Shown: piece after piece, positions 18,964-59,935 of the stretch
Numbering within the stretch: position 1 is the stretch's first letter
Layout: each line of letters starts with the position of its first letter
Assembly (NCBI GenBank): GCA_037440105.1
Contig: JBBIUS010000002.1
Span: 2,685 to 66,684 of the forward strand
Direction of reading: 5' to 3'
From: Candidatus Falkowbacteria bacterium
GTDB lineage: Bacteria > Patescibacteriota > Patescibacteriia > XYB2-FULL-38-15
Length of the DNA: 64,000 nucleotides
The notes under the pieces: generated by a model
Seen by the model: the letters and a program-made list of their open reading frames with translations, nothing else
Told to the model about the DNA's origin: nothing
Database searches by the model: none
Translations under genes and position numbers: made by a program

Positions 18964-19524
18964 ATGGTAAAAAAGGGAACTAAAAAAACAAAAGTAAAAG
19001 CAAAAACAGCTGCAAAAAAAGCTGAGGTTATCGTTTTTAAAGAAAAACCAAAACCTAAAATTGGAGAAGAAAAAGTTAAGAAAGTAAAATCAATCAGCGG
19101 GGAGGAATTGGTAGAAAAAGTAGCGGCAAAAAAAAGAACATATCTTTTTGCGGTTGGGAGAAGAAAAAGCGGGATCGCTCAAGTGAAAATTTATAAAAAT
19201 GGCAAGGGTGTAATCACTGTGAACGGAAAAGATTATAGACAGTATTTCCCGTTTTTTGAATTTCAAGAAATAATTAATGCTCCTTTAAGATCAGTTGGCC
19301 AAAGCGATAAACTTGATGTTGAAGTAAAGATAAACGGCGGCGGGAAGCGAGGTCAAGCAGAAGCTATAAGATTGGGAATTAGTCGAGCTTTGATTAAATT
19401 AAACCAAAATTTTAAAAAGAATCTGCGTCGGGCTGGGTTTTTAACTAGAGATGCAAGAGTTAAAGAAAGAAAGAAATATGGTCTAAAACGCGCCAGGCGC
19501 GCCCCGCAGTGGCAAAAGCGTTAA
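18964..19524 (+). CDS. rpsI: 30S ribosomal protein S9 with Lys-rich N-terminal extension
   Basis: 186 aa. S9 core (AVGRRKSGIAQVKIYKNGKG...GGGKRGQAEAIRLGISRAL) and a C-terminal ...QWQKR. The first ~55 aa are a K-rich extension. Confidence 0.95.
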   Translation: MVKKGTKKTKVKAKTAAKKAEVIVFKEKPKPKIGEEKVKKVKSISGEELVEKVAAKKRTYLFAVGRRKSGIAQVKIYKNGKGVITVNGKDYRQYFPFFEFQEIINAPLRSVGQSDKLDVEVKINGGGKRGQAEAIRLGISRALIKLNQNFKKNLRRAGFLTRDARVKERKKYGLKRARRAPQWQKR

Positions 19525-19649
19525 GCTTTTGCCGCGAGGACAGGGAATGGTCGGAAACCATAAGGTTTCCGATTTGCGGAAACATTAAAACCGCAGGGTT
19601 TTAAGGAGTCCCAACCGAAGCGTTGGGACGACCCGTAAGTGGCAAAAGC
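19523..19649 (+). ncRNA. Candidate structured RNA / inserted element: three hairpins closed by a 9-bp stem
   Basis: Closing stem GCTTTTGCC (19523-19531) / GGCAAAAGC (19641-19649). Hairpins are TCGGAAACC-ataa-GGTTTCCGA (19551-19572), TGCGG...CCGCA (19575-19595) and GTCCCAAC-cgaagc-GTTGGGAC (19608-19629). It is GC-rich relative to its surroundings. The class is unknown. Confidence 0.35.
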
Positions 19650-19667
19650 GATAAGCCTTAGTTTATT

Positions 19668-19756
19668 AAATCAACCACGGATTTTATTGCACGGATAACA
19701 TGGGTATTTGATTTATTTGTGTAAATCCTAGTGTAGCAAAAATCCGTGGTTGATTT
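19668..19756. repeat. Intergenic hairpin with 18-bp perfect stem
   Basis: AAATCAACCACGGATTTT (19668-19685) is the exact reverse complement of AAAATCCGTGGTTGATTT (19739-19756). Confidence 0.8.
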
Positions 19757-19788
19757 GTATTCAAAATTAAGTTAAAATTAGGTAATGT

Positions 19789-22482: not shown

Positions 22483-22956
22483 TTAACGAAGCGTTGCTAC
22501 CCAATCCCCAATATAATGAGTTATTACAATAACTACAACGGCTATAGTTAAATGCTCAGCAATCACTTTATATGGTTTTATATTTTGTTCTTTGGCCATA
22601 AAATAACTAAGCAGAATCAATAAGAATAGCCCCCACATAACGCAAACAACAATCGCAGCAAAAAGTTCTAGAAATAGGACAGGGACAATAAATGTCAAAG
22701 CAAAAATAAATTTGGATAAAAAAGTAGCAATTGTTGATTCCCAAATTTCTTTTGTTGAGTGTTTAGCTTCAAATTCTTCAGAAATGTGAATTCCTAAAGC
22801 ATCTGACATGGCATCGGCTATGGCTATAACAAAAATGCCGCTGGCGACAATAATAGAGGAATGAGTCCCAGAATGCAAACCAACGATTAGACCCAAAGTT
22901 GTGATTATTCCGGATGTTAAACCAAAACCAAACCCTTTTCTTATTGAAAGTTTCAT
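22483..22956 (-). CDS. VIT1/CCC1-like membrane protein (putative Fe/Mn transporter family)
   Basis: 157 aa. GFGLTSGIITTLGLIVGL...AIADAMSDALGIHISEE followed by three C-terminal TM segments. The family call is from memory of the VIT pattern. Confidence 0.5.
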   Translation of the reverse strand: MKLSIRKGFGFGLTSGIITTLGLIVGLHSGTHSSIIVASGIFVIAIADAMSDALGIHISEEFEAKHSTKEIWESTIATFLSKFIFALTFIVPVLFLELFAAIVVCVMWGLFLLILLSYFMAKEQNIKPYKVIAEHLTIAVVVIVITHYIGDWVATLR

Positions 22957-23105
22957 AGATTACTGTATTTAATTTTTGTTAAATCATTAGTAAGAATAAT
23001 CAGTTTCATTATTCCAATTTTATCAATATAGTTTATTCGCGGAATAGGGGATTAAATAAAATATTTTTTTATTTAATACATGAGCAAAGGATATACTCGC
23101 TTGTT

Positions 23106-23963
23106 TTATAGAGTTTTTATATGAATGCCAAACAATTCCCAGTTTCCTTGTTCGAAAATATAACTTAATTCAAAGGAAAGATTTATTTCTGTCGTTGTTG
23201 AAACGTCAAGGGCCTTGCCACGCAAAACCAAAAGGCCGTCTTCATCAAAAAACGGCGCTTCGGTCAATTCAATTGAGGCTGATGGCATTCTTTCTAAATT
23301 GACTTCATTAGTAATAAAAGATTCAAAAGCCGAATAAATTTCCTCTGAATTAGTCTGTTTTTGCCAGGCTGATGATATAGATTCGTAAAAAGTTGTAAAA
23401 TCTTTTTCTTTTACTGCTTCGGCGAAAATAATTAATGTTTCTCTTGCTATTTTTTTGGCCTCGGTTTCAACAGGAAGATATTGTTCAATTTCTTCCTCTT
23501 TTGCTTCTTCCTCTTTTAGTTCTTCAGTTTCTTCTTCTCTCGGTTCTTGGAAAGTCTCTTTTAAGCCGGCTTTAGGAATAGTAATTGAAAATATTTTCCA
23601 CGTGCCATTTTCTTTTATTAATTCGATTTTTAAAGGAATTGTTCTACCGTCTTTTAGGATAACAGTGCCTTCGAGCAAGCCGCGCCCGCCCTCAATACTG
23701 CGCGATGACCAAGAAGCGCTTGAAAAGTTAGAAAGATCGGTTTCTCCCAAAAATTCATTAAATGCGTCTTGATCCATCGCTGTCTGAAATCCTTTAGCAG
23801 TTGCTTTATAGGCTTCCAAAGTTTTACCTTGAGCAATTAATGAGAAAAAGGAATCAGCTGTTCGGGGGAGATTGCTTGTTAAATAAAAAGCCAAACCAAT
23901 GATAAGAGCAATAACAGCAATAATGACCCCAAGAATAATTAGAATTTTTTTTGCAGTGGACAT
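23106..23963 (-). CDS. Membrane-anchored hypothetical protein with two similar alpha+beta repeats separated by an acidic linker
   Basis: 285 aa. N-terminal TM (ILIILGVIIAVIALIIGLAFYL). Two modules each end in ...GTWKIFSITI / ...GNWELFGIHI, joined by an E-rich linker. Confidence 0.7.
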   Translation of the reverse strand: MSTAKKILIILGVIIAVIALIIGLAFYLTSNLPRTADSFFSLIAQGKTLEAYKATAKGFQTAMDQDAFNEFLGETDLSNFSSASWSSRSIEGGRGLLEGTVILKDGRTIPLKIELIKENGTWKIFSITIPKAGLKETFQEPREEETEELKEEEAKEEEIEQYLPVETEAKKIARETLIIFAEAVKEKDFTTFYESISSAWQKQTNSEEIYSAFESFITNEVNLERMPSASIELTEAPFFDEDGLLVLRGKALDVSTTTEINLSFELSYIFEQGNWELFGIHIKTL

Positions 23964-24012
23964 AAAGATTAATTAGTTTAGTTAATATTAATATATTATT
24001 ATATTATTATAA

Positions 24013-24307
24013 CGGCGCGCGGCTATCCGTAGTTTTGCGAAGGCAACCGCAGTTGCCGAAGCAAAATTACGGATAGCCGCTGTTCTGCGATGTCCGCGAG
24101 CGCTCCGAGCAAAGCGAGGACGCGCGAGCGGTGAGCAGAACAGCGGGAACCGCGGCGCATTAGGCAAAATCCAGTGAGCGAAGCGAGCGGATTTTGCCTA
24201 ACGTTTCTGCATAGCCGAAGTTGGCTGGCTGTATAATATCGCACGAAGTGCGGCACAGCCAGCCAATTTGGGCGAGTTCTTTGAAAAAGAGCGAGCCGGA
24301 TATGCAG
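24013..24307. other. GC-rich island of four to five consecutive strong hairpins (candidate structured RNA or recombination/mobile-element sequence)
   Basis: Stems are 24019-24038/24061-24080 (20 bp, with an inner 6-bp stem), 24079-24088/24135-24144 (10 bp), 24160-24172/24189-24201 (13 bp) and 24221-24232/24255-24266 (12 bp, inner CGCAC-gaa-GTGCG). An outer pair is 24207-24213/24301-24307. The motif GAGCGAGC recurs in the loops. Confidence 0.5.
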
Positions 24308-24308
24308 T

Positions 24309-24377
24309 GTTATGTGCTGTTCCATTTTTATTTGCGTCAGCAAATGTGAGCAACGCGAACAGAGAAATGCTTTTATT
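24309..24377. repeat. Left arm of a ~35-bp inverted repeat flanking ORF 24373-24786
   Basis: GTTATGTGC (24309-17), TCCATTTTT (24321-29) and AGAGAAATGCTTTTATT (24361-77) are reverse complements of 24831-39, 24819-27 and 24802-18. A 31-nt insert at 24330-60 contains the hairpin TTTGC-gtca-GCAAA. Confidence 0.8.
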
Positions 24378-24786
24378 TTGCTAATTGCTCTGCTCTGTCA
24401 ATGAATTTTTGTAAAGCCTTTTTATCTTGTTTCTGTATAATCCTTTTGATGTTAGCTTTAAACTCATCAATAAGTTGATCTAAGGCGGCGACCGCTTCAG
24501 GGTCACTGCGTTGTTTGATTATTTCATAAACTTCAGGAAGATTTTCGTATTCCTTTTGTGCGCGTTCCAGATAATGAGGAATTCGGCGAATCATGTCATC
24601 AAAATCTGGGTGACTACCTAAAGAGTAACTTGAGAGGAAAATCTGTTGGTAATTGAGAACTGCCGCATGATCAAGTTTATAACCTTTATTAAAATTTGCC
24701 TCCATCCACTTGTACTGTGATTCATGGCCGGTAATATTCTTAAAACTAAGACTTTCGTAGTCGCCGCCGCCTTTTTTTATACTCAT
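24373..24786 (-). CDS. Hypothetical protein (137 aa), helical, no recognisable family
   Basis: Intact ORF enclosed by the inverted repeat. Divergent from the recombinase gene. No motif recognised. Confidence 0.65.
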   Translation of the reverse strand: MSIKKGGGDYESLSFKNITGHESQYKWMEANFNKGYKLDHAAVLNYQQIFLSSYSLGSHPDFDDMIRRIPHYLERAQKEYENLPEVYEIIKQRSDPEAVAALDQLIDEFKANIKRIIQKQDKKALQKFIDRAEQLAK

Positions 24787-24801
24787 AATTTTGATGTTAA
24801 G

Positions 24802-24839
24802 AATAAAAGCATTTCTCTAAAAATGGATTGGCACATAAC
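24802..24839. repeat. Right arm of the inverted repeat flanking ORF 24373-24786
   Basis: AATAAAAGCATTTCTCT AAAAATGGA ttg GCACATAAC. See the left arm at 24309-24377. Confidence 0.8.
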
Positions 24840-24945
24840 TCGTTTCTAGGCGTGTTGATTACTTGTTAATAACTTTGAATTGATTGTTATGCGAACTCTT
24901 ATTATAATTAAATTAGCCTAATTTTAATATAACATATCAATAAAT

Positions 24946-25767
24946 ATGAGTCAATATTTGGAAAAAACCGAACAAGAATTGCGCCTGCGCAATTACAGCC
25001 AAAAGACGATTAAAAGTTATCTTGGATGTTTGGCTGATTACCTCGCCGTGGCACATCATAATTCAGAAAATATTGATCTAGAGTTGATAAAAAATTTTTT
25101 ATTAGGAAAGCAAAGCAAGGGTTATGCTCCGCAAACCGTGAATCTCTATTTGAACGCCATAAAATTTTTTTATCGCGACGTTTTAAAAATTTCCCAAAGA
25201 ATAGATTTGAAATTTGCCAAGCAGGGTCAACGCTTGCCGATCGTTCTCTCGCGGGAAGAAGTTGACAGGCTAATCGGAGTAATAAAAAATGCCAAACATC
25301 GGTTGATGCTAGCCCTAGCTTATGGCGCTGGTTTGCGCGTCAGCGAGGTAATAAACTTGCGCATCAGAGACATTGACTTGCAAGAACTTACCATCCATAT
25401 AAAACAAACTAAAGGCAAAAAAGACCGCCTGACCGTGTTTCCAAAAAAATTAAAATCCGAGGTAGCCGCGCTTATTGCGCTCCGTGACCCAAATGATTTT
25501 GTATTTAGAAGCGAACGCGGTGGAAAATTAACCGAACGCGCTGCGCAAGTTATTTTTGAACGAGCAAAAGAGGCGGCAAAAATCAAAAAAAAGGCGACCT
25601 TTCATTCTCTCCGCCACAGTTTTGCCACGCATCTTTTGGAAAACGGAGTTGATGTCCGCTATGTTCAGGAACTTTTGGGTCACCAAAACATTCGCACCAC
25701 GCAGATTTACACCCATGTTACAAATCCTGCCATCAAAAATATTAGAAGTCCGCTAGATAGAACATGA
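24946..25767 (+). CDS. Tyrosine site-specific recombinase (Xer / integron-integrase-like clade, without the IntI-specific insertion)
   Basis: 273 aa. LAYGAGLRVSEV, HSLRHSFATHLL and LLGHQNIRTTQIYTHV, with a C-terminal ...IRSPLD tail. Confidence 0.9.
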   Translation: MSQYLEKTEQELRLRNYSQKTIKSYLGCLADYLAVAHHNSENIDLELIKNFLLGKQSKGYAPQTVNLYLNAIKFFYRDVLKISQRIDLKFAKQGQRLPIVLSREEVDRLIGVIKNAKHRLMLALAYGAGLRVSEVINLRIRDIDLQELTIHIKQTKGKKDRLTVFPKKLKSEVAALIALRDPNDFVFRSERGGKLTERAAQVIFERAKEAAKIKKKATFHSLRHSFATHLLENGVDVRYVQELLGHQNIRTTQIYTHVTNPAIKNIRSPLDRT

Positions 25768-25841
25768 ATCAGGAATTATGAATTAGGAATCAGGCTATCA
25801 GAAGTAAAACCATGACTCATAATTCATGATTCATAATTCAT
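25765..25841. repeat. Intergenic hairpin of GAATCAG/GAATTAG versus ATTCATA/ATTCATG heptamers
   Basis: Left arm ATGAATCAGGAATTATGAATTAGGAATCAGG. Right arm CCATGACTCATAATTCATGATTCATAATTCAT. Pairing is imperfect. The same word family recurs at 9320-9375, 40487-40567, 53855-53925 and 61107-61140. Confidence 0.6.
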
Positions 25842-25843
25842 TT

Positions 25844-28800
25844 ATGGACGATTTACTTAAAGATTTAAATCAAGAGCAGCGACAGGCGGTCATGCATAGC
25901 GACGGACCTTTGCTTATAATTGCTGGCGCGGGGACCGGGAAAACCACTGTTATTACGAGGCGGATTGCTTGGCTCATTTTGGAAAAGAGGATAAAGCCGG
26001 ACGAAATTTTGGCTGTGACTTTTACAGAAAAGGCAGCAGGGGAGATGGAAGAAAGAGTGGACCAACTTCTGCCTTACGGCTATGTTGATTTATGGATTTC
26101 GACTTTTCATTCTTTTTGTGAGCGAGTTTTAAAAGATCACGCGATTGATATAGGTTTACCTGGCGATTTTAAATTGCTAAATCAGACCGAGCAGTGGCTC
26201 TTGGTTCGCCAAAATTTAGAGCGATTCAATTTGGATTATTATCGGCCGCTTGGCAATCCGACAAAATTTATTCACTCGCTTTTGAAACACTTTAGTCGGG
26301 CAAAGGACGAGGAAATTTGGCCGGAGGATTATCTCCAGTATGTGGAAGAATTGCGGCTGAATGAAGATAATACTTTAAAGCAGGGCAAATTTGTTAAAAA
26401 TTCTACTAAATCACAAATCGCAAATTACAAATTACAAACAAATCCTAAATCCGAAATAATAAATACTCAATACGAAATACAAGATACGAAACGCTTAGAA
26501 GAAGTAGCTAACGCCTATCATACCTACCAGCAGCTGCTTTTAGAAAACAATGCTTTGGATTTTGGCGATTTAATAAATTATACACTTAAACTTTTTCGTA
26601 CCCGGCCGGCAATTTTGGGAAAATACCGGCAGAAGTTTAAGTATATTTTAGTTGACGAATTTCAAGACACAAATTGGGCGCAGTATGAGTTGATAAAAAT
26701 GCTGGCCGCCCCCAAAAACAATCTGACAGTTGTTGGTGATGACGATCAGTCAATTTATAAGTTTCGCGGCGCATCTATCAGCAACATTTTGCAGTTTAAA
26801 AACGATTATCCAAAATGCCGGGAAATTGTTATTACTGACAATTACCGCACGAAACAAAATATTTTGGATTTGGCCTATAAGTTTATTAAACAAAACGATC
26901 CGAATCGGTTGGAGGCAAAATTGGGAATCGTGAAAAAACTAGCAGCCAAAAGAAATGGGGATGGGGTCATAGAGCACATCCATGCGCGCACAGCCGATGC
27001 CGAAGCCAGGGCTGTAGCAGAAAAAATTTTGGAGTTGAAAAACAAAGATAAAGCAATTAATTGGCAGGATTTTGCTATTTTAGTTAGAGCTAATAACCAA
27101 GCAGAAATGTTTATGCCCGTCCTAGATCAGTACGGCATTCCTTATCAATTTTTGGCGTCGAGTGGACTTTATTCAAAGCCAATTATTTTAGATATCATCG
27201 CTTATCTAAAACTACTTGATAATTATCATGAATCTGGGGCAGTTTATAGAATTTTAAACATGCCAATGGTTGATTTAGCTTACGATGATATTGTGAAATT
27301 GAATTATTTTTCTCGGAGGAAAAACTGGTCGCTTTATGAAACGATGAAAAACGCGGCAGCAGTTGGGGTTTCAGGTGAAGGTTTGCGAAAAATAAATAAA
27401 ATTCTAGGTTTTGTAGAAAAACACACCTCTTTGGCAAGGGGGAATGGGGTTGGCAAGGTAGTTTTTAAATTTTTGGAAGATTTTAAATATTTGGCAAATT
27501 TAACTCGTCGAGCAGAAAAAGGGGATTTGCGAGCCGTAGAAAATATTAGTTATATCAACCAGTTTTTAAAAAGAGTTGATGAATTTGAGCGAACTGATCC
27601 ATCGAGATCATTGAAGAATTTTATGGCTGAATTGGATATGGCTTTGGAGTCCGGCGAAGAAGGCTCTTTGGCTTCAAGTTTTGAAGAGGGCCCAGAGGCA
27701 GTGAAAATTTTGACGGTGCACGGAGCAAAAGGTTTAGAATTTAGATATGTTTTTATTGTTAATTTAGTTGATTTGCGTTTTCCTTCGACAGACCGCAAAG
27801 AGCCAATTGAACTGTCTGACGCTTTAGTAAAAGAGATCGTCCCAGAAGGCGATATTCATCTTGAGGAAGAGCGGCGGCTTTTTTATGTTGCCATGACCCG
27901 GGCGCGCGACGGGGTGTTTTTTACTTCCGCTTCTGACTACGGCGGCCAGAGAAAAAAGAAATTGTCGAGGTTTTTAGTGGAGTTAGGGTTTTCGGCGCCG
28001 GAAGTCAAAACCCCCACTGGTCAAGTTTATTTTAATGAGGAAAAACAGTCAGAGGAGCGCGGACCAAGTGTAAAGAAATACTGGCTGCCCAGCAGATTCA
28101 GTTTTACTCAACTTAAAGCTTTTGAAACCTGTCCTTTGCAGTACAAATTTGCCCATATTCTTGCTGTGCCGGTTCGCGGAAAATTTACTTTTAGTTTTGG
28201 CAAAACAATGCATGGCACGTTGTATAAATTTTTTCAAGGAATGATAGAACGCAGTAAAATAACGCAAAGCAATTTATTTGGAGCAATGGAGGCCGAAGAG
28301 CACCGCGGTCATTCTGGTTTTATGCTAAAAAACGCTAAATTAGAAGCAGCACCATCACTTGATGACCTTTTAAAAATTTATGAAGAGTCGTGGATTAATG
28401 ATTGGTATGAAAGCAAGGCGCATCATGACGAATATAAAAAGAAGGGGAAAGAAATTTTGCGTGAGTTCTATAAAATTCACGAAGGTAAATGGCCGAAAGT
28501 AAAATATTTAGAGAAGGGTTTTAATTTGAAAGTAGGGGATTATACTGTTCGCGGTGTGATTGATCGGGTAGACGAAGTGCCAGGCGGTCTTGAAATCATT
28601 GATTATAAAACCGGCAGCGTGCCGCGCGACGAGAGATATTTAGAAAAAGAACAATTATTAATTTATCAACTAGCAACTTGTGATGTTTTTGGCGAAAAGC
28701 CGGCTCTTTTGAGTTATTATTATTTAGACGAAAATAAAAAAATATCATTTTTAGGAAGTGATGAAGATTTAAAGGGGATTCGCGAAAAAATTATTACTAC

Positions 28801-28900
28801 TATAGAAGAGATTAAAAAAAGCAATTTTCCTCCAAAGCCGAGTTTGTACAATTGTAAAAATTGCGACTTTAAAGATATTTGCGAATACAGAGTTTTATAA
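25844..28900 (+). CDS. UvrD/PcrA-type helicase fused to a C-terminal PD-(D/E)XK (AddB/Cas4-like) nuclease with Cys cluster
   Basis: Walker A GAGTGKTT, ILVDEFQDT and VGDDDQSIYKFRGA. The C-terminus has TCPLQYKF ... IDYKTG ... CKNCDFKDIC. The track's start at 25826 lies inside the upstream hairpin, so the ATG at 25844 is preferred. Confidence 0.85.
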   Translation: MDDLLKDLNQEQRQAVMHSDGPLLIIAGAGTGKTTVITRRIAWLILEKRIKPDEILAVTFTEKAAGEMEERVDQLLPYGYVDLWISTFHSFCERVLKDHAIDIGLPGDFKLLNQTEQWLLVRQNLERFNLDYYRPLGNPTKFIHSLLKHFSRAKDEEIWPEDYLQYVEELRLNEDNTLKQGKFVKNSTKSQIANYKLQTNPKSEIINTQYEIQDTKRLEEVANAYHTYQQLLLENNALDFGDLINYTLKLFRTRPAILGKYRQKFKYILVDEFQDTNWAQYELIKMLAAPKNNLTVVGDDDQSIYKFRGASISNILQFKNDYPKCREIVITDNYRTKQNILDLAYKFIKQNDPNRLEAKLGIVKKLAAKRNGDGVIEHIHARTADAEARAVAEKILELKNKDKAINWQDFAILVRANNQAEMFMPVLDQYGIPYQFLASSGLYSKPIILDIIAYLKLLDNYHESGAVYRILNMPMVDLAYDDIVKLNYFSRRKNWSLYETMKNAAAVGVSGEGLRKINKILGFVEKHTSLARGNGVGKVVFKFLEDFKYLANLTRRAEKGDLRAVENISYINQFLKRVDEFERTDPSRSLKNFMAELDMALESGEEGSLASSFEEGPEAVKILTVHGAKGLEFRYVFIVNLVDLRFPSTDRKEPIELSDALVKEIVPEGDIHLEEERRLFYVAMTRARDGVFFTSASDYGGQRKKKLSRFLVELGFSAPEVKTPTGQVYFNEEKQSEERGPSVKKYWLPSRFSFTQLKAFETCPLQYKFAHILAVPVRGKFTFSFGKTMHGTLYKFFQGMIERSKITQSNLFGAMEAEEHRGHSGFMLKNAKLEAAPSLDDLLKIYEESWINDWYESKAHHDEYKKKGKEILREFYKIHEGKWPKVKYLEKGFNLKVGDYTVRGVIDRVDEVPGGLEIIDYKTGSVPRDERYLEKEQLLIYQLATCDVFGEKPALLSYYYLDENKKISFLGSDEDLKGIREKIITTIEEIKKSNFPPKPSLYNCKNCDFKDICEYRVL

Positions 28901-59686: not shown

Positions 59687-59709
59687 GGACCACATTTAGA
59701 AAATAAAAA

Positions 59710-59935
59710 GGAGCGGCAAGGACTTGTGTCAATACCGCTCAGAGAGCAACCGCGCGAGGTGCCGAATCGGCACCCGTTGCGGATTATTTTCTGCCCTCGC
59801 TGTTTTTTCTTCCAGCGAGGTCAGCCGAGTGTGCCGGTTTACTGTCGAGCCTAGACTCGGGGCAGGCCCGCGAAAGGAGTCTCGCTCAGAGTGACAGGCA
59901 ACTTGAGCGAGAGCCGAGCCGGCTACGGCTTTCTA
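59710..59935. ncRNA. Candidate structured RNA (~225 nt, unknown class, strand unresolved)
   Basis: GC-rich island. Stems are 59711-16/59735-40, 59746-50/59776-80 enclosing 59758-59774 (7 bp), the three-way junction 59791-94/59862-65 with 59795-802/59813-20 and 59825-30/59855-60, and 59880-88/59904-12 (9 bp). All stems are perfect Watson-Crick. Confidence 0.4.

What the first reader, a model, noticed from the sequence alone, without database searches (positions are those of the whole stretch)
24013..24307. GC-rich island of consecutive 10-20-bp hairpins between two minus-strand genes, next to a tyrosine recombinase
Within ~300 nt there are four back-to-back strong stems of 20, 10, 13 and 12 bp. 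Two have nested inner hairpins and one is enclosed by a further 7-bp helix. Base composition is strikingly GC-rich for this genome. Loops and spacers repeat a GAGCGAGC(G/C)G motif (24095-24130, 24174-24189, 24289-24298).

Strand evidence conflicts. The single non-canonical pair in the 20-bp stem is G:U on the plus strand. The inner tetraloops read UGCG and CUUCG on the minus strand. The only ORF here (24023-24343, minus) is Arg-rich nonsense.

Candidates are a novel structured RNA, a recombination or packaging site for the adjacent recombinase, or a selfish GC-cluster-type element.
Basis: seen in the sequence. Interest (0 to 1): 0.65.

Follow-up and report, generated by a model that had tools for sequence, protein, structure and literature searches.

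The report
Integron-like cassette recombination sites
The GC-rich hairpin cluster appears to be the folded recombination sites of an integron-like gene-cassette system run by the neighbouring recombinase; I found no description of it in the paper library, and it occurs across many lineages of the ultra-small CPR bacteria.

Summary
Positions 24013-24320 hold four strong hairpins, at 51-63% GC in a 36% GC genome, and fold far better than shuffled sequence (z = -12).

It matches no Rfam family. Comparison with about 80 related loci shows recombination sites instead.

- **H4 (24203-24320)** is an attC-like site. It has a YAAC/GTTR stem, an 11-bp stem with 8 covarying pairs, and two variable hairpins. 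It closes a one-gene cassette (137-aa ORF).
- **The cassette start** abuts an attI-like core 107 nt upstream of the recombinase gene.
- **H1-H3** form a widespread ORF-less cassette (the "L module"), built from another such site plus two paired box hairpins.

A covariance model of H4 finds 121 sites. All lie in same-strand arrays upstream of homologous recombinases in CPR genomes, and none lies in 46 control loci.

Each site's tail is complementary to the far end of its own cassette (0 of 10,000 permutations reach this). The same cassette and the same L module occur elsewhere with different neighbours. The breakpoints fall exactly at YAA|N, equivalent to the G|TT crossover of integrons.

The recombinase is closest to integron integrase IntI4 but lacks the roughly 50-aa IntI insertion.

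Verdict: a new variant of the integron principle. No recombination was tested experimentally.

The parts
24014..24141 (+). First unit of the ORF-less 'L module'. It contains an attC-like site H1 (left junction TATAA|C at 24012|24013; stem 24019-24047 / 24052-24080) and its tail GTTCTGCGATGT (24082-24093). Hairpin H2 (24077-24088 / 24135-24146) is formed by that tail pairing with the box GCAGAAC (24135-24141).
   Evidence: Covariance model R1, built on H4-type sites, hits 23996-24098 at 34.3 bits, E = 2e-4. Inverted repeats I1 and I5. The homologous unit is present in at least 33 distinct metagenome L modules with a defined left boundary AA|T G(G/C)GCGGCGGCTAT. The H1 stem is 87% paired with 4 covarying pairs.
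24142..24202 (+). Second unit of the L module. It contains the internal junction CAGAA|C (24140|24141), a mini-hairpin GCGG-GAA-CCGC (24143-24153), and hairpin H3 (24160-24172 / 24189-24201). The 3' arm of H3, GGATTTTGCCTAAC, is the 'left arm' of the next junction (CCTAA|C at 24201|24202).
   Evidence: H3 is 98.6% paired across 20 L modules, with 4 of 11 pairs changing on both sides. The internal junction is used on its own in L086 copy 2. The same arm consensus ATTT(C/T)GCNYAAC precedes every junction, with or without a hairpin.
24203..24320 (+). attC-like site H4 of the 137-aa cassette. Its parts are the R-box stem 24199-24203 (TAACG) / 24308-24312 (TGTTA), a TTT bulge, the 11-bp stem P1 (24207-24217 / 24297-24307), variable hairpins P2 (24215-24273) and P3 (about 24275-24296), and the tail GTTATGTGC (24309-24317).
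   Evidence: R1 hit at 86.5 bits. On 27 sites, 95.6% of cells are paired and 8 of 11 P1 pairs change on both sides; there are 84 double-change cells against 26 +/- 3.6 in shuffles, 0 of 500 reaching the observed value. The site is about 95% identical in the homologous cassette L083, with identity ending exactly at GAAAC|GTTA.
24321..24372 (-). 3' untranslated part of the cassette. It is an inverted repeat of the cassette's 5' leader and so extends the R stem.
   Evidence: AATAAAAGCATTTCTCT and AAAAATGG are complementary to sequences within 24787-24839 (read; blastn self-hit). Conserved in L083.
24373..24786 (-). Cassette cargo: a 137-aa ORF of unknown function, oriented away from the recombinase gene.
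   Evidence: ORF list. No Pfam or NCBIfam family. Two homologues at 61-63% identity; one of them (L083) sits in the same cassette frame.
24787..24839 (-). Cassette 5' end. The left arm GGATTGGCACATAAC ends at the junction CATAA|C (24838|24839). GCACATAAC (24831-24839) is the complement of the H4 tail.
   Evidence: 11 contiguous pairs between tail and arm, against 4 for the physically adjacent arm. Identity with L083 begins exactly at GTTATGTGCC.
24840..24908 (+). attI-like platform next to the recombinase gene. It has the right arm TCGTTTCTAGGCG (24840-24852), a second arm-like copy TTGTTATGCGAACT (24886-24899), and a promoter-like site TTGATT-17-TATAAT (24880-24908) facing the recombinase gene.
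   Evidence: AAC|TCGTTTCTATACGAATTG plus a second TATTATACGAA copy is conserved 80-160 nt upstream of the recombinase start in most CPR loci examined. Promoter scan (consensus match only).
24926..24954 (-). Promoter-like site TTGACT-17-TATATT (10 of 12, with TG) pointing into the cassette array. A possible Pc analogue.
   Evidence: This is a consensus match only: 5 sites were found against 3.4 expected in the region.
24946..25767 (+). Tyrosine recombinase, 273 aa. It is IntI/XerA-like and lacks the IntI-specific insertion.
   Evidence: Pfam Phage_integrase plus SAM-like N domain. NCBIfam NF040815 'tyrosine recombinase/integron integrase' at 227.5 bits (cut-off 220); TIGR02249 integron integrase at 225 bits (cut-off 265) in two stretches. 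The best PDB sequence match is VchIntIA/IntI4 (2a3v) at 160 bits, with query 2-179 matching 3-183 and query 186-272 matching 236-319. XerA is colinear at 148 bits; XerD scores 88 bits.

Best explanation
**What it is.** The island is the recombination-site region of an integron-like gene-cassette array on a CPR/Patescibacteria-type chromosome.

Read on the minus strand, the order is:

1. the recombinase gene, transcribed divergently;
2. an attI-like core site;
3. cassette 1, made of the 137-aa ORF plus its attC-like site H4;
4. an ORF-less cassette, the L module (H3, H2, H1).

**How it most likely works.** The recombinase exchanges strands at a conserved YAA|N position on the window's plus strand. 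This equals G|TT on the cassette-sense strand, the same position as in integrons. Cassettes would leave as circles and enter at attI.

In a circular or single-stranded cassette, the site folds. The tail after H4 pairs with the cassette's own 5' end (R box plus extension). An 11-bp stem (P1) follows after a TTT bulge, and two variable hairpins cap it.

H2 and H3 are the same kind of tail-to-arm pairing in cassettes that carry almost no cargo. That is why they appear as simple hairpins.

**Shown versus inferred.**

- Shown: the site family, its covariation, its exclusive linkage to the recombinase, the exact exchange junctions, and the cognate end-to-end complementarity.
- Inferred: that this recombinase catalyses the exchange, that the substrate is the folded bottom strand, and that the intermediates are circular.
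For: 1. **Site family and linkage.** Model R1 finds 27 sites (E < 0.01) in the window and CPR loci. All are on the recombinase-gene strand and upstream of the gene. None occurs in 46 loci with more distant recombinases at 30-35% identity. It finds 94 more in metagenome loci. Within each locus the sites share one strand; in the loci that also hold a recombinase match they lie on its strand. Arrays reach at least 8 sites over 7 kb.

2. **Structure.** P1 and the R box are 95.6% paired, 8 of 11 P1 pairs covary, and 0 of 500 shuffles reach the observed value. H3 is 98.6% paired with 4 covarying pairs.

3. **Cassette logic.**
   - The largest ORF points away from the recombinase in 24 of the 25 ORF-bearing cassettes (26 intervals scored; one is ORF-less).
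   - Cassette length is 374-2661 bp for the ORF-bearing ones.
   - Tail-to-cognate-arm pairing averages 7.35 contiguous bp, against 4.83 +/- 0.33 in permutations (0 of 10,000).
   - 14 of 26 cognate pairs reach 9 bp or more, against 2 of 26 for the adjacent arm.
   - The window's own cassette pairs over 11 bp.

4. **Mobility with exact borders.**
   - The 137-aa cassette recurs in L083. Identity starts at G|TTATGTGCC and ends at GAAAC|GTTA, and the flanks differ.
   - L107 copy 2 and L135 are identical for 350 nt up to GCCTAA. They then continue with different partners, C GTTAAGC... versus T GTGCGGCGGC....
   - Identical L modules are joined to attI or to different H4 sites.

5. **Same locus, different cargo.** L003 shares the flanking VIT1-like gene at 80% nucleotide identity but holds four other cassettes.

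6. **The recombinase.** It is nearest to IntI4 and XerA.

7. **Strand asymmetry.** The strand antisense to the cassette ORFs folds better in 23-24 of 27 sites (Wilcoxon p about 1e-4), and a G.T pair is conserved in the R box.

8. **Cargo.** It is accessory-type: a HaeIII-type restriction-modification pair, a GNAT acetyltransferase, radical SAM enzymes, methyltransferases, a transporter, and many ORFs with no family.
Against: - Nothing was tested experimentally. No circular junction or empty site for this window's cassette was found; the only other contigs from the same run break inside H3.
- The recombinase lacks the IntI insertion, which in integron integrases contacts the extrahelical bases of folded attC. 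Single-strand recombination is therefore not guaranteed (the role of the insertion is from MacDonald et al. 2006 as cited in PMC8138268, and from PMC7790495).
- The window's array is minimal: one ORF cassette plus the L module. No site lies beyond 23996.
- The same H4 core occurs next to different genes in L009 and L022. A simple "site travels with its ORF" model does not predict this.
- Covariation counts on alignment A2 are made on a model-fitted alignment, which leans towards the structure.
- The function of the L module is unknown.
Confidence: 0.8

Rival explanations
1. **Xer/dif with integrated elements.** The recombinase is the cell's housekeeping chromosome-dimer resolvase (XerA-like, acting alone). 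The conserved core upstream of it is dif. The cassettes are IMEX-like elements that exploit Xer, as CTX phage or Acinetobacter pdif modules do.
For: - The recombinase is colinear with archaeal XerA and passes the NF040815 cut-off.
- CPR Xer-related recombinases were classed as a presumed housekeeping 'Cand' subgroup (PMC8138268).
- The attI-like core has two inverted arm-like halves around a short spacer, like dif.
- No second recombinase paralogue is seen in the 64 kb.
Against: - GC skew stays positive on both sides of 24.8 kb, about +0.2 over 1-22 kb and over 27-43 kb. The site is therefore not at a skew switch, where dif would lie.
- There are arrays of up to 8 or more sites in one orientation, with cassette-type cargo and end-to-end complementarity.
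- The best sequence match is IntI4, well above XerD (160 against 88 bits).
- The two readings are not exclusive. The recombinase could do both jobs.
Confidence: 0.1
2. **A structured non-coding RNA.** A plus-strand small RNA, or the structured 3' UTR or terminator of the cassette genes, whose hairpins act at the RNA level.
For: - Very stable fold with covariation.
- A weak promoter-like match at 23982-24010 on the plus strand, just before H1.
- Loops rich in GNRA-like and GCGAAGC motifs.
Against: - No Rfam family at gathering score or at E <= 10 other than chance miRNA-type hairpin matches.
- No terminator-like site.
- The better-folding strand is antisense to the cassette mRNAs.
- Pairing partners lie 0.4-2.6 kb apart, across the ORFs.
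- Sequence exchange occurs at a fixed junction.
- Presence is tied to one recombinase family.
Confidence: 0.03
3. **Selfish palindromic repeats.** REP-, MITE- or GC-cluster-like elements that spread through the genome by a mechanism unrelated to the neighbouring recombinase and have simply accumulated in an intergenic gap.
For: - H1-H3 carry no ORF.
- They are GC-rich in an AT-rich genome.
- They occur in several near-identical copies in some genomes (three copies at 96-99% identity in L022; two per contig in L102, L107 and L111).
Against: - There is no second copy anywhere in the 64-kb window.
- Wherever enough of the contig is held to show their setting (L022, L102, L107, L111 and the junctions listed), the copies lie inside same-strand arrays and abut the YAA|N junction.
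- Their ends are the arm and tail boxes of the site family.
Confidence: 0.04

Closest known systems
Integrons (IntI integrase, attI, cassette arrays with attC sites; for example the Vibrio cholerae chromosomal integron with VCR repeats)
   Same: - The recombinase gene is divergent from an array of mostly promoterless-looking ORFs, all oriented away from it.
- A primary site lies next to the recombinase gene.
- Each cassette ends in an imperfect palindrome with RYYYAAC-like and GTTRRRY-like boxes.
- The crossover maps to G|TT.
- The site's 3' box pairs with the first bases of the cassette.
- The strand opposite the ORFs folds better.
- Site repeats are near-identical within a genome, and ORF-less cassettes exist.
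- The array varies at a fixed chromosomal locus.
- The recombinase is most similar to IntI4.
   Different: - The recombinase lacks the roughly 50-aa IntI insertion (I2 helix region) that defines IntI.
- The sites are larger (about 90-220 nt).
- They have a 5-bp R stem, a 3-nt bulge, an 11-bp perfectly pairing stem and a three-way top, with no evident conserved extrahelical bases.
- The R stem can extend for tens of bp into the cassette's 5' leader.
- The compound ORF-less L module is abundant.
- The hosts are CPR bacteria.
Xer/dif recombination and elements that exploit it (archaeal XerA; XerS/difSL and XerH, where dif adjoins the gene; CTX-phage folded attP; Acinetobacter pdif modules)
   Same: - A short Xer-type two-domain recombinase that is colinear with XerA.
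- A core site with two arm-like halves next to the gene.
- Small modules bounded by recombinase sites.
- A precedent for a Xer enzyme using a folded single-stranded site (CTX phage; from my own knowledge).
   Different: - The locus is not at a GC-skew switch.
- There are many tandem sites in one orientation.
- The sites have cassette-specific folded structures with covariation, rather than a fixed 28-bp sequence.
REP / MITE-type palindromic repeats and mitochondrial GC clusters
   Same: Short, GC-rich, ORF-less, hairpin-forming and multi-copy.
   Different: Seen here only inside recombinase-linked arrays, in one orientation, with exchange at a defined junction. They are not dispersed.

Membership tests
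Integron | Integrase of the IntI clade carrying the IntI-specific insertion (I2 helix region) in the catalytic domain | tested here: not met
   Query residues 2-179 align to IntI4 3-183 and residues 186-272 to 236-319. About 50 residues of IntI4 therefore have no counterpart. TIGR02249 scores 225 bits, below its 265 cut-off, in two stretches.
Integron | Primary recombination site (attI) directly beside the integrase gene | tested here: met
   A conserved YAAC|TCGTTTCTATACGAATTG core plus a second arm-like copy lies 80-160 nt upstream of the start codon in most CPR loci examined. In the window the junction is at 24838|24839. The same left-hand modules are joined either to this core or to H4 sites.
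Integron | Array of cassettes in one orientation, each an ORF followed by a palindromic attC site | tested here: met
   27 + 94 sites, all in same-strand arrays. The largest ORF is on the opposite strand to the recombinase gene in 24 of the 25 ORF-bearing cassettes, which are 374-2661 bp long.
Integron | attC architecture: R''-L''...L'-R' with RYYYAAC / GTTRRRY boxes and extrahelical bases in the L box | tested here: inconclusive
   YAAC(G)/(T)GTTR boxes and a second stem are present and covary. There is no conserved extrahelical base; there is a TTT bulge, an 11-bp stem and a three-way top instead. IntegronFinder's attC model was not available.
Integron | Crossover between G and TT of the core site | tested here: met
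   Breakpoints of shared sequence fall right after YAA on the plus strand. The next base goes with the right-hand partner (C with H4 or attI, T with L-type sites). This is a comparative inference, not a biochemical mapping.
Integron | Folded bottom strand of attC is the substrate; replicative resolution | not testable with these tools
   Indirect only: the plus strand (opposite the ORFs) folds better in 23-24 of 27 sites, and a G.T pair is conserved.
Integron | Pc promoter in or next to the integrase gene, driving the cassettes | tested here: inconclusive
   A promoter-like match lies on the minus strand at 24954-24926 (10 of 12). The scan found 5 sites against 3.4 expected by chance.
Xer/dif chromosome-dimer resolution | Xer-type recombinase | tested here: met
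   Colinear with XerA (4a8e, 148 bits). NF040815 scores 227.5 bits, above its 220 cut-off.
Xer/dif chromosome-dimer resolution | Single dif site at the replication terminus (GC-skew switch) | tested here: not met
   Skew is positive on both sides of the locus and cumulative skew rises through it. There are multiple sites per locus. Only 64 kb was seen.
Known structured RNA families (Rfam 15) | Match to a curated covariance model | tested here: not met
   No hit at gathering score in the window. At E <= 10 there are only sub-threshold miRNA-type hairpin matches.
REP / MITE-like dispersed palindromes | Many copies dispersed through the genome, independent of a specific recombinase locus | tested here: not met
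   No other copy in the 64 kb. All copies elsewhere lie in arrays at YAA|N junctions. Whole genomes were not available.

The most novel reading that the evidence does not exclude
**A natural "integron without the IntI domain".** A CPR-wide gene-capture platform in which an IntI/XerA-like recombinase lacking the I2 insertion recombines large folded single-stranded sites at the same G|TT position as integrons.

This would be either a surviving intermediate between Xer/dif and integrons or an independent invention of the same logic.

The ORF-less L modules would be minimal cassettes made of little more than recombination sites, about 60-190 nt long. They would either parasitise the system or serve it.
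Probability: 0.5. Interest if true: 0.9.

Novelty: new variant of a known kind. Interest (0 to 1): 0.82.

Why it matters
**Evolution of integrons.** Integrons are the textbook gene-capture device of bacteria. Their integrase is defined by an extra domain thought to have enabled recombination of folded single-stranded DNA (PMC4792948, PMC7790495). A cassette system with the same layout and crossover point, but a recombinase that lacks that domain, would make integron origins from Xer directly testable.

**Biology of CPR bacteria.** The same system would reveal a route for accessory-gene exchange in CPR bacteria. These organisms have tiny genomes and few recognised mobile elements. Restriction-modification, acetyltransferase, radical-SAM and transporter genes already ride in these cassettes.

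**Practical consequences.**
- Integron-finding software that requires the IntI domain would miss these arrays.
- The palindromic sites break short-read assemblies, so the arrays are probably under-represented in metagenome-assembled genomes.
- The sites are structure-specified, which could be of interest as recombination tools.

Tried and rejected
- **Rfam.** The whole window at gathering score, and the island at E <= 10, gave only chance miRNA-type hairpin hits.
- **tRNA/tmRNA scan.** None in the window.
- **Terminator scan.** No site found.
- **Coding potential.** The ORF 24023-24343 has no family.
- **More copies in the window.** A sensitive blastn of the island found only its own inverted repeats.
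- **Other GC-rich islands** (19.5 kb and 59.8 kb) as members of the same family: not hit by model R1, no Rfam family.
- **Exact-protein look-ups for alternative contexts.**
  - The 137-aa protein and the DUF4864 protein are each on one short contig from the same run. Both contigs break inside H3, so they say nothing about polymorphism.
  - The recombinase is not on record.
- **Second homologue of the 137-aa protein (L082).** It has no recognisable site next to it.
- **Phage or packaging origin.** The L pattern is absent from viral contigs. Recombinase relatives there are at most 37% identical, apart from one 66-residue fragment.
- **Cassette site beyond DUF4864/VIT1.** None found.
- **Hammerhead-like reading of CUGAAGU at the three-way junction.** Rejected: the core does not match, and Rfam ribozyme models do not hit.
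- **Literature.** The library is incomplete, so this is not proof of novelty.
Full report
**1. The observation**

The island exists as described. Four inverted repeats lie back to back between 24019 and 24307:

- **H1:** arms of 29 nt at 86% complementarity, with an inner hairpin.
- **H2:** 12 nt at 100%.
- **H3:** 13 nt at 100%.
- **H4:** a 19-nt stem at 89%, enclosed by an 11-nt stem at 91%.

GC content reaches 51-63%, against about 36% for the window as a whole. In a sliding scan of all 64 kb, these are the most stably folding 150-nt segments.

The region 24005-24372 folds at -188 kcal/mol on the plus strand (z = -12.2) and at -162 kcal/mol on the minus strand (z = -7.9).

The "GAGCGAGC" motif is only loosely repeated. 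The exact 8-mer occurs once in the island, and degenerate copies recur in loops.

**2. What it is not**

- No Rfam family matches at gathering score anywhere in the window. At E <= 10 only sub-threshold miRNA-type hairpin models match.
- There are no tRNA or tmRNA genes and no terminator-like sites.
- The overlapping ORF has no family.
- The island has no second copy in the window.

**3. Context**

The window is a bacterial chromosome segment; an rpoA-rplQ-rplM-rpsI cluster lies at 17-19.5 kb.

| Feature | Coordinates and strand | Evidence |
|---|---|---|
| VIT1-like gene | 22483-22956, minus | |
| DUF4864 protein | 23106-23963, minus | |
| 137-aa protein, no family | 24373-24786, minus | |
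| Tyrosine recombinase, 273 aa | 24946-25767, plus | |
| UvrD/PD-(D/E)XK helicase-nuclease | 25826-28900, plus | |

**4. The lead from relatives**

A scan of one genome per species found more than 540 relatives of the recombinase. The best are 50-68% identical and come from metagenome-assembled genomes (MAGs). Most are labelled with CPR/Patescibacteria lineages:

- Berkelbacteria
- Nomurabacteria
- Uhrbacteria
- Portnoybacteria
- Peregrinibacteria
- Shapirobacteria
- Magasanikbacteria
- Kuenenbacteria

A few carry other taxon labels. Many of these matches lie within a few hundred bases of a contig end.

Upstream of these genes lie sequences resembling H3 and H4, with different stem sequences but preserved pairing.

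**5. The H4 site family**

Fourteen H4-like sequences align to this consensus:

YAAC|G-TTT-[P1 5' strand]-AAGTT-[variable hairpin]-AATTTGGG-[variable hairpin]-GAACC-[P1 3' strand]-T-GTTATGTGATGT

I built a covariance model of it (R1).

*Where the model hits:*

- It finds 27 sites at E < 0.01 in the window and the CPR loci. All are on the strand of the recombinase gene and upstream of it.
- It finds none in 46 control loci whose recombinases are only 30-35% identical (Bacillales, Dehalococcoidia and others).
- In the window it hits H4 (86.5 bits) and also H1 (34.3 bits, E = 2e-4). H1 is therefore a simpler member of the same site family.

*Covariation on the 27 sites:*

- 95.6% of cells are paired.
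- 8 of the 11 P1 pairs change on both sides.
- There are 84 double-change cells, against 26 +/- 3.6 in shuffles (0 of 500 reach the observed value).
- Sliding the partner by one to three columns drops pairing to 22-51%.
- Caveat: this alignment is fitted to the model. The independent MAFFT/RNAalifold analysis of the 14 seed sequences gives the same helices, with 7 covarying pairs.

**6. The attI-like site**

A conserved sequence lies about 80-160 nt upstream of the recombinase start codon in most CPR loci examined:

ATTTCGCAYAAC|TCGTTTCTATACGAATTG

- A second copy, TATTATACGAA, lies about 45 nt further on.
- In the window this is GGATTGGCACATAAC|TCGTTTCTAGGCG, with the junction at 24838|24839.
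- The left half (ATTT[C/T]GCNYAAC) is the same arm that precedes every H4-type site.
- In H3 that arm is simply base-paired to an inverted copy of itself.

**7. Cassette logic**

I treated each interval between consecutive junctions as a cassette.

- The largest ORF is on the strand opposite the recombinase gene in 24 of the 25 ORF-bearing cassettes. As in integrons, the ORFs read away from attI.
- The ORF-bearing cassettes are 374-2661 bp long.

The decisive test concerns the "tail" that follows each site (GTTATGTG...). It is complementary to the arm at the other, recombinase-proximal end of the same cassette, not to the arm physically next to it.

| Measure | Cognate arm | Comparison |
|---|---|---|
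| Mean contiguous pairs | 7.35 | 4.83 +/- 0.33 when arms are permuted (0 of 10,000 reach 7.35) |
| Cassettes with 9 bp or more | 14 of 26 | 2 of 26 for the adjacent arm |

For the window's cassette, the tail GTTATGTGC (24309-24317) is the exact complement of GCACATAAC (24831-24839). The pairing continues through the whole 5' leader and 3' trailer.

Such long-range complementarity makes sense if the cassette exists as a circle or as a folded single strand, where the two ends form one hairpin.

**8. Direct evidence for modular exchange**

- **(a) The same cassette in another setting.** A 63%-identical homologue of the 137-aa protein lies on a metagenome contig (L083) inside the same cassette. 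Nucleotide identity begins exactly at G|TTATGTGCC and ends exactly at GAAAC|GTTA. The flanks are unrelated, and no L module follows. The non-coding ends are about 95% identical, while the coding part is about 70% identical.
- **(b) One left side, two right partners.** Two contigs (L107 copy 2 and L135) are identical over 350 nt, covering the end of a cassette gene plus an L module, up to GCCTAA. They then continue with C-GTTAAGCATATG (an H4 site) or T-GTGCGGCGGC (another L module). A third copy shows the left border of the L module at AA|T.
  - This places the exchange between YAA and the next base on the plus strand.
  - On the cassette-sense strand that is G|TT, the integron crossover position.
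- **(c) One L module, several partners.** Identical L modules are joined to attI in some contigs and to different H4 sites in others.
- **(d) Same locus, different cargo.** A related genome (L003) shares the VIT1-like gene at 80% nucleotide identity up to its start codon. It then carries four different cassettes before attI and the recombinase gene.

**9. H1-H3, the L module**

A narrow pattern from the H2-H3 linker found 55 metagenome contigs, mostly groundwater.

- About 49 carry true L modules.
- The six coding-sequence false positives have no R1 hit.

The module has defined borders and a constant architecture:

1. an H1-type site;
2. a tail CTGTTRNGCGATGT;
3. hairpin H2;
4. a mini-hairpin GCGG-GAA-CCGC;
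5. hairpin H3.

H3 is 98.6% paired, with four covarying pairs.

In 16 of 20 modules, the 7-mer of the H1 tail is the exact complement of the H3 3' arm. The whole module therefore has the end-to-end complementarity of a cassette, but carries no ORF.

The window's module is chimeric:

- Its tail (GTTCTGC) matches the H2 box (GCAGAAC) rather than the H3 arm (GCCTAAC).
- The internal junction between H2 and the mini-hairpin is used on its own in L086. That junction is therefore probably active too.

H2 and H3 are thus "R-box" pairings around almost empty cargo. H1, the mini-hairpin and H4 are the site stems proper.

**10. Arrays and cargo**

R1 finds 94 more sites in the metagenome loci. Within each locus they share one strand; in the loci that also hold a recombinase match they lie on its strand. 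Arrays reach at least 8 sites over 7 kb upstream of the recombinase in L111.

Cassette ORFs sampled from the genome loci encode accessory-type functions:

- a complete HaeIII-type restriction-modification pair
- a GNAT acetyltransferase
- radical SAM enzymes
- methyltransferases
- a Vut_1 transporter
- HD-domain proteins
- an LD-carboxypeptidase
- an aminotransferase
- several proteins with no family

**11. The recombinase**

| Comparison | Score | Note |
|---|---|---|
| NCBIfam NF040815 "tyrosine recombinase/integron integrase" | 227.5 bits | cut-off 220; passes |
| TIGR02249 integron integrase | 225 bits | cut-off 265; two stretches |
| XerC / XerD models | about 185 bits | |
| PDB 2a3v, Vibrio IntI4 | 160 bits | best solved-structure match |
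| PDB XerA entries | 148 and 142 bits | colinear throughout |
| PDB XerD | 88 bits | |

The IntI4 alignment is split. Query residues 2-179 match IntI4 3-183, and residues 186-272 match 236-319. The roughly 50-residue IntI-specific insertion is therefore absent.

The C-terminal RSPLD resembles IntI4's SPLSR. It also resembles, from my memory of IntI1, VRSPLD; I did not test this.

**12. Which strand, and DNA or RNA?**

- The plus strand, which is opposite the cassette ORFs, folds better in 23 of 27 sites with RNA parameters and in 24 of 27 with DNA parameters (Wilcoxon p about 1e-4).
- A G.T pair in the R box is conserved in 24 of 27 sites.
- An RNA on that strand would be antisense to the cassettes, and no convincing promoter faces that way.

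This mirrors the bottom-strand preference of integron attC sites. It remains an inference.

**13. Rivals**

*Xer/dif with integrated elements* is the serious alternative, and it is partly compatible with the main reading. Against it:

- GC skew does not switch at the locus.
- Sites come in long tandem arrays.
- The best sequence match is to IntI.

The other rivals fit poorly:

- *A structured RNA* is contradicted by the evidence in sections 7, 8 and 12.
- *Dispersed selfish palindromes* are contradicted by the exclusive array context.
- *A phage site* is unlikely: the L pattern is absent from 2.9 million viral contigs, and recombinase relatives there are distant.

**14. Comparison with known systems, and novelty**

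The system works like an integron. It shares these features:

- the platform layout;
- the cassette orientation;
- a palindromic site at each cassette's end;
- the G|TT crossover;
- pairing of the cassette ends;
- variable cargo at a fixed locus.

It fails the defining membership test for the integrase, because the IntI insertion is absent. Its sites also differ in architecture:

- a TTT bulge rather than extrahelical bases;
- an 11-bp stem;
- a three-way top;
- an extended R stem;
- the compound ORF-less module.

On the literature:

- Smyshlyaev et al. 2021 placed CPR Xer-related recombinases in a "Cand" subgroup among presumed housekeeping enzymes (PMC8138268).
- The IntegronFinder 2.0 survey does not mention CPR (PMC9024848).
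- Eight full-text searches found no description of such arrays.
- The library is incomplete, so prior description cannot be excluded.

I rate it a new variant of a known kind.

**15. Limits**

- Everything rests on sequence comparison.
- No circular junction or empty site was found for this window's cassette.
- The window's own array is minimal.
- The function of the L module is unknown.
- The same H4 core sits next to different genes in L009 and L022, which remains unexplained.

Noticed in passing
window 19476-19760: A second GC-rich hairpin island lies directly after rpsI. It is bracketed by near-identical 18-nt direct repeats of the rpsI 3' end: GTGGCAAAAGCGTTAAGC at 19509-19526 and GTGGCAAAAGCGATAAGC at 19639-19656. 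A long AT-rich hairpin follows at 19663-19760. The fold z-score is -9.4. There is no Rfam family and no hit from site model R1. It looks like an insertion that duplicated the gene end.
   Followed up: partly
window 59700-59930: A third GC-rich (about 59-61%) structured island lies between a 77-aa ORF and a Wzy_C-type gene. The fold z-score is -4.6 on the plus strand and -4.1 on the minus strand. There is no Rfam family and no R1 hit.
   Followed up: partly
L001 and L145 (Logan contigs of run SRR11582170); L002-L035: Short-read contigs break inside these palindromes. Both contigs from the window's own run end inside H3. Many genome-collection contigs start only 50-800 bp upstream of the recombinase gene. 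These arrays are probably under-assembled in metagenome-assembled genomes.
   Followed up: partly
L083:1-700 compared with window 24170-24860: The non-coding ends of the shared cassette (5' leader, 3' trailer, H4) are about 95% identical. The ORF between them is only about 70% identical at the DNA level and 63% at the protein level.
   Followed up: no
L009:2558-2686, L022:698-825, L010:857-917: The same H4 core, from the junction to the GTT of the tail, is 97.7% identical in L009 and L022 but sits next to different cassette genes (Methyltransf_33 versus HD_4). Its 3' half is 100% identical in L010. The site core may be exchangeable at both of its boxes.
   Followed up: no
L013:1357-3751 and L013:3878-3925: One cassette carries a complete HaeIII-type restriction endonuclease plus a C5-methylase. 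In this locus the attI-like site is a perfect palindrome: AACTCGTTTTTATCTGAA-TATA-TTTCAGATAAAAACGAGTT.
   Followed up: no
L003:1-520 compared with window 22600-23120: A Patescibacteria genome (UBA6257) shares the VIT1-like gene at 80% nucleotide identity up to the start codon. Its cassette array begins about 45 nt further on. The window has the DUF4864 gene at that position. Whether DUF4864 is itself a decayed cassette is open.
   Followed up: partly
window 24038-24248: CGAAG occurs five times in the island (24038, 24056, 24179, 24216, 24244), often as GCGAAGC or CACGAAGTG. Loops of H2 and H3 in other L modules carry GCGAAGCG or GCCGAAGGC. From my own knowledge, d(GCGAAGC) is an unusually stable DNA mini-hairpin. 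This would fit a single-stranded DNA role but was not tested.
   Followed up: no
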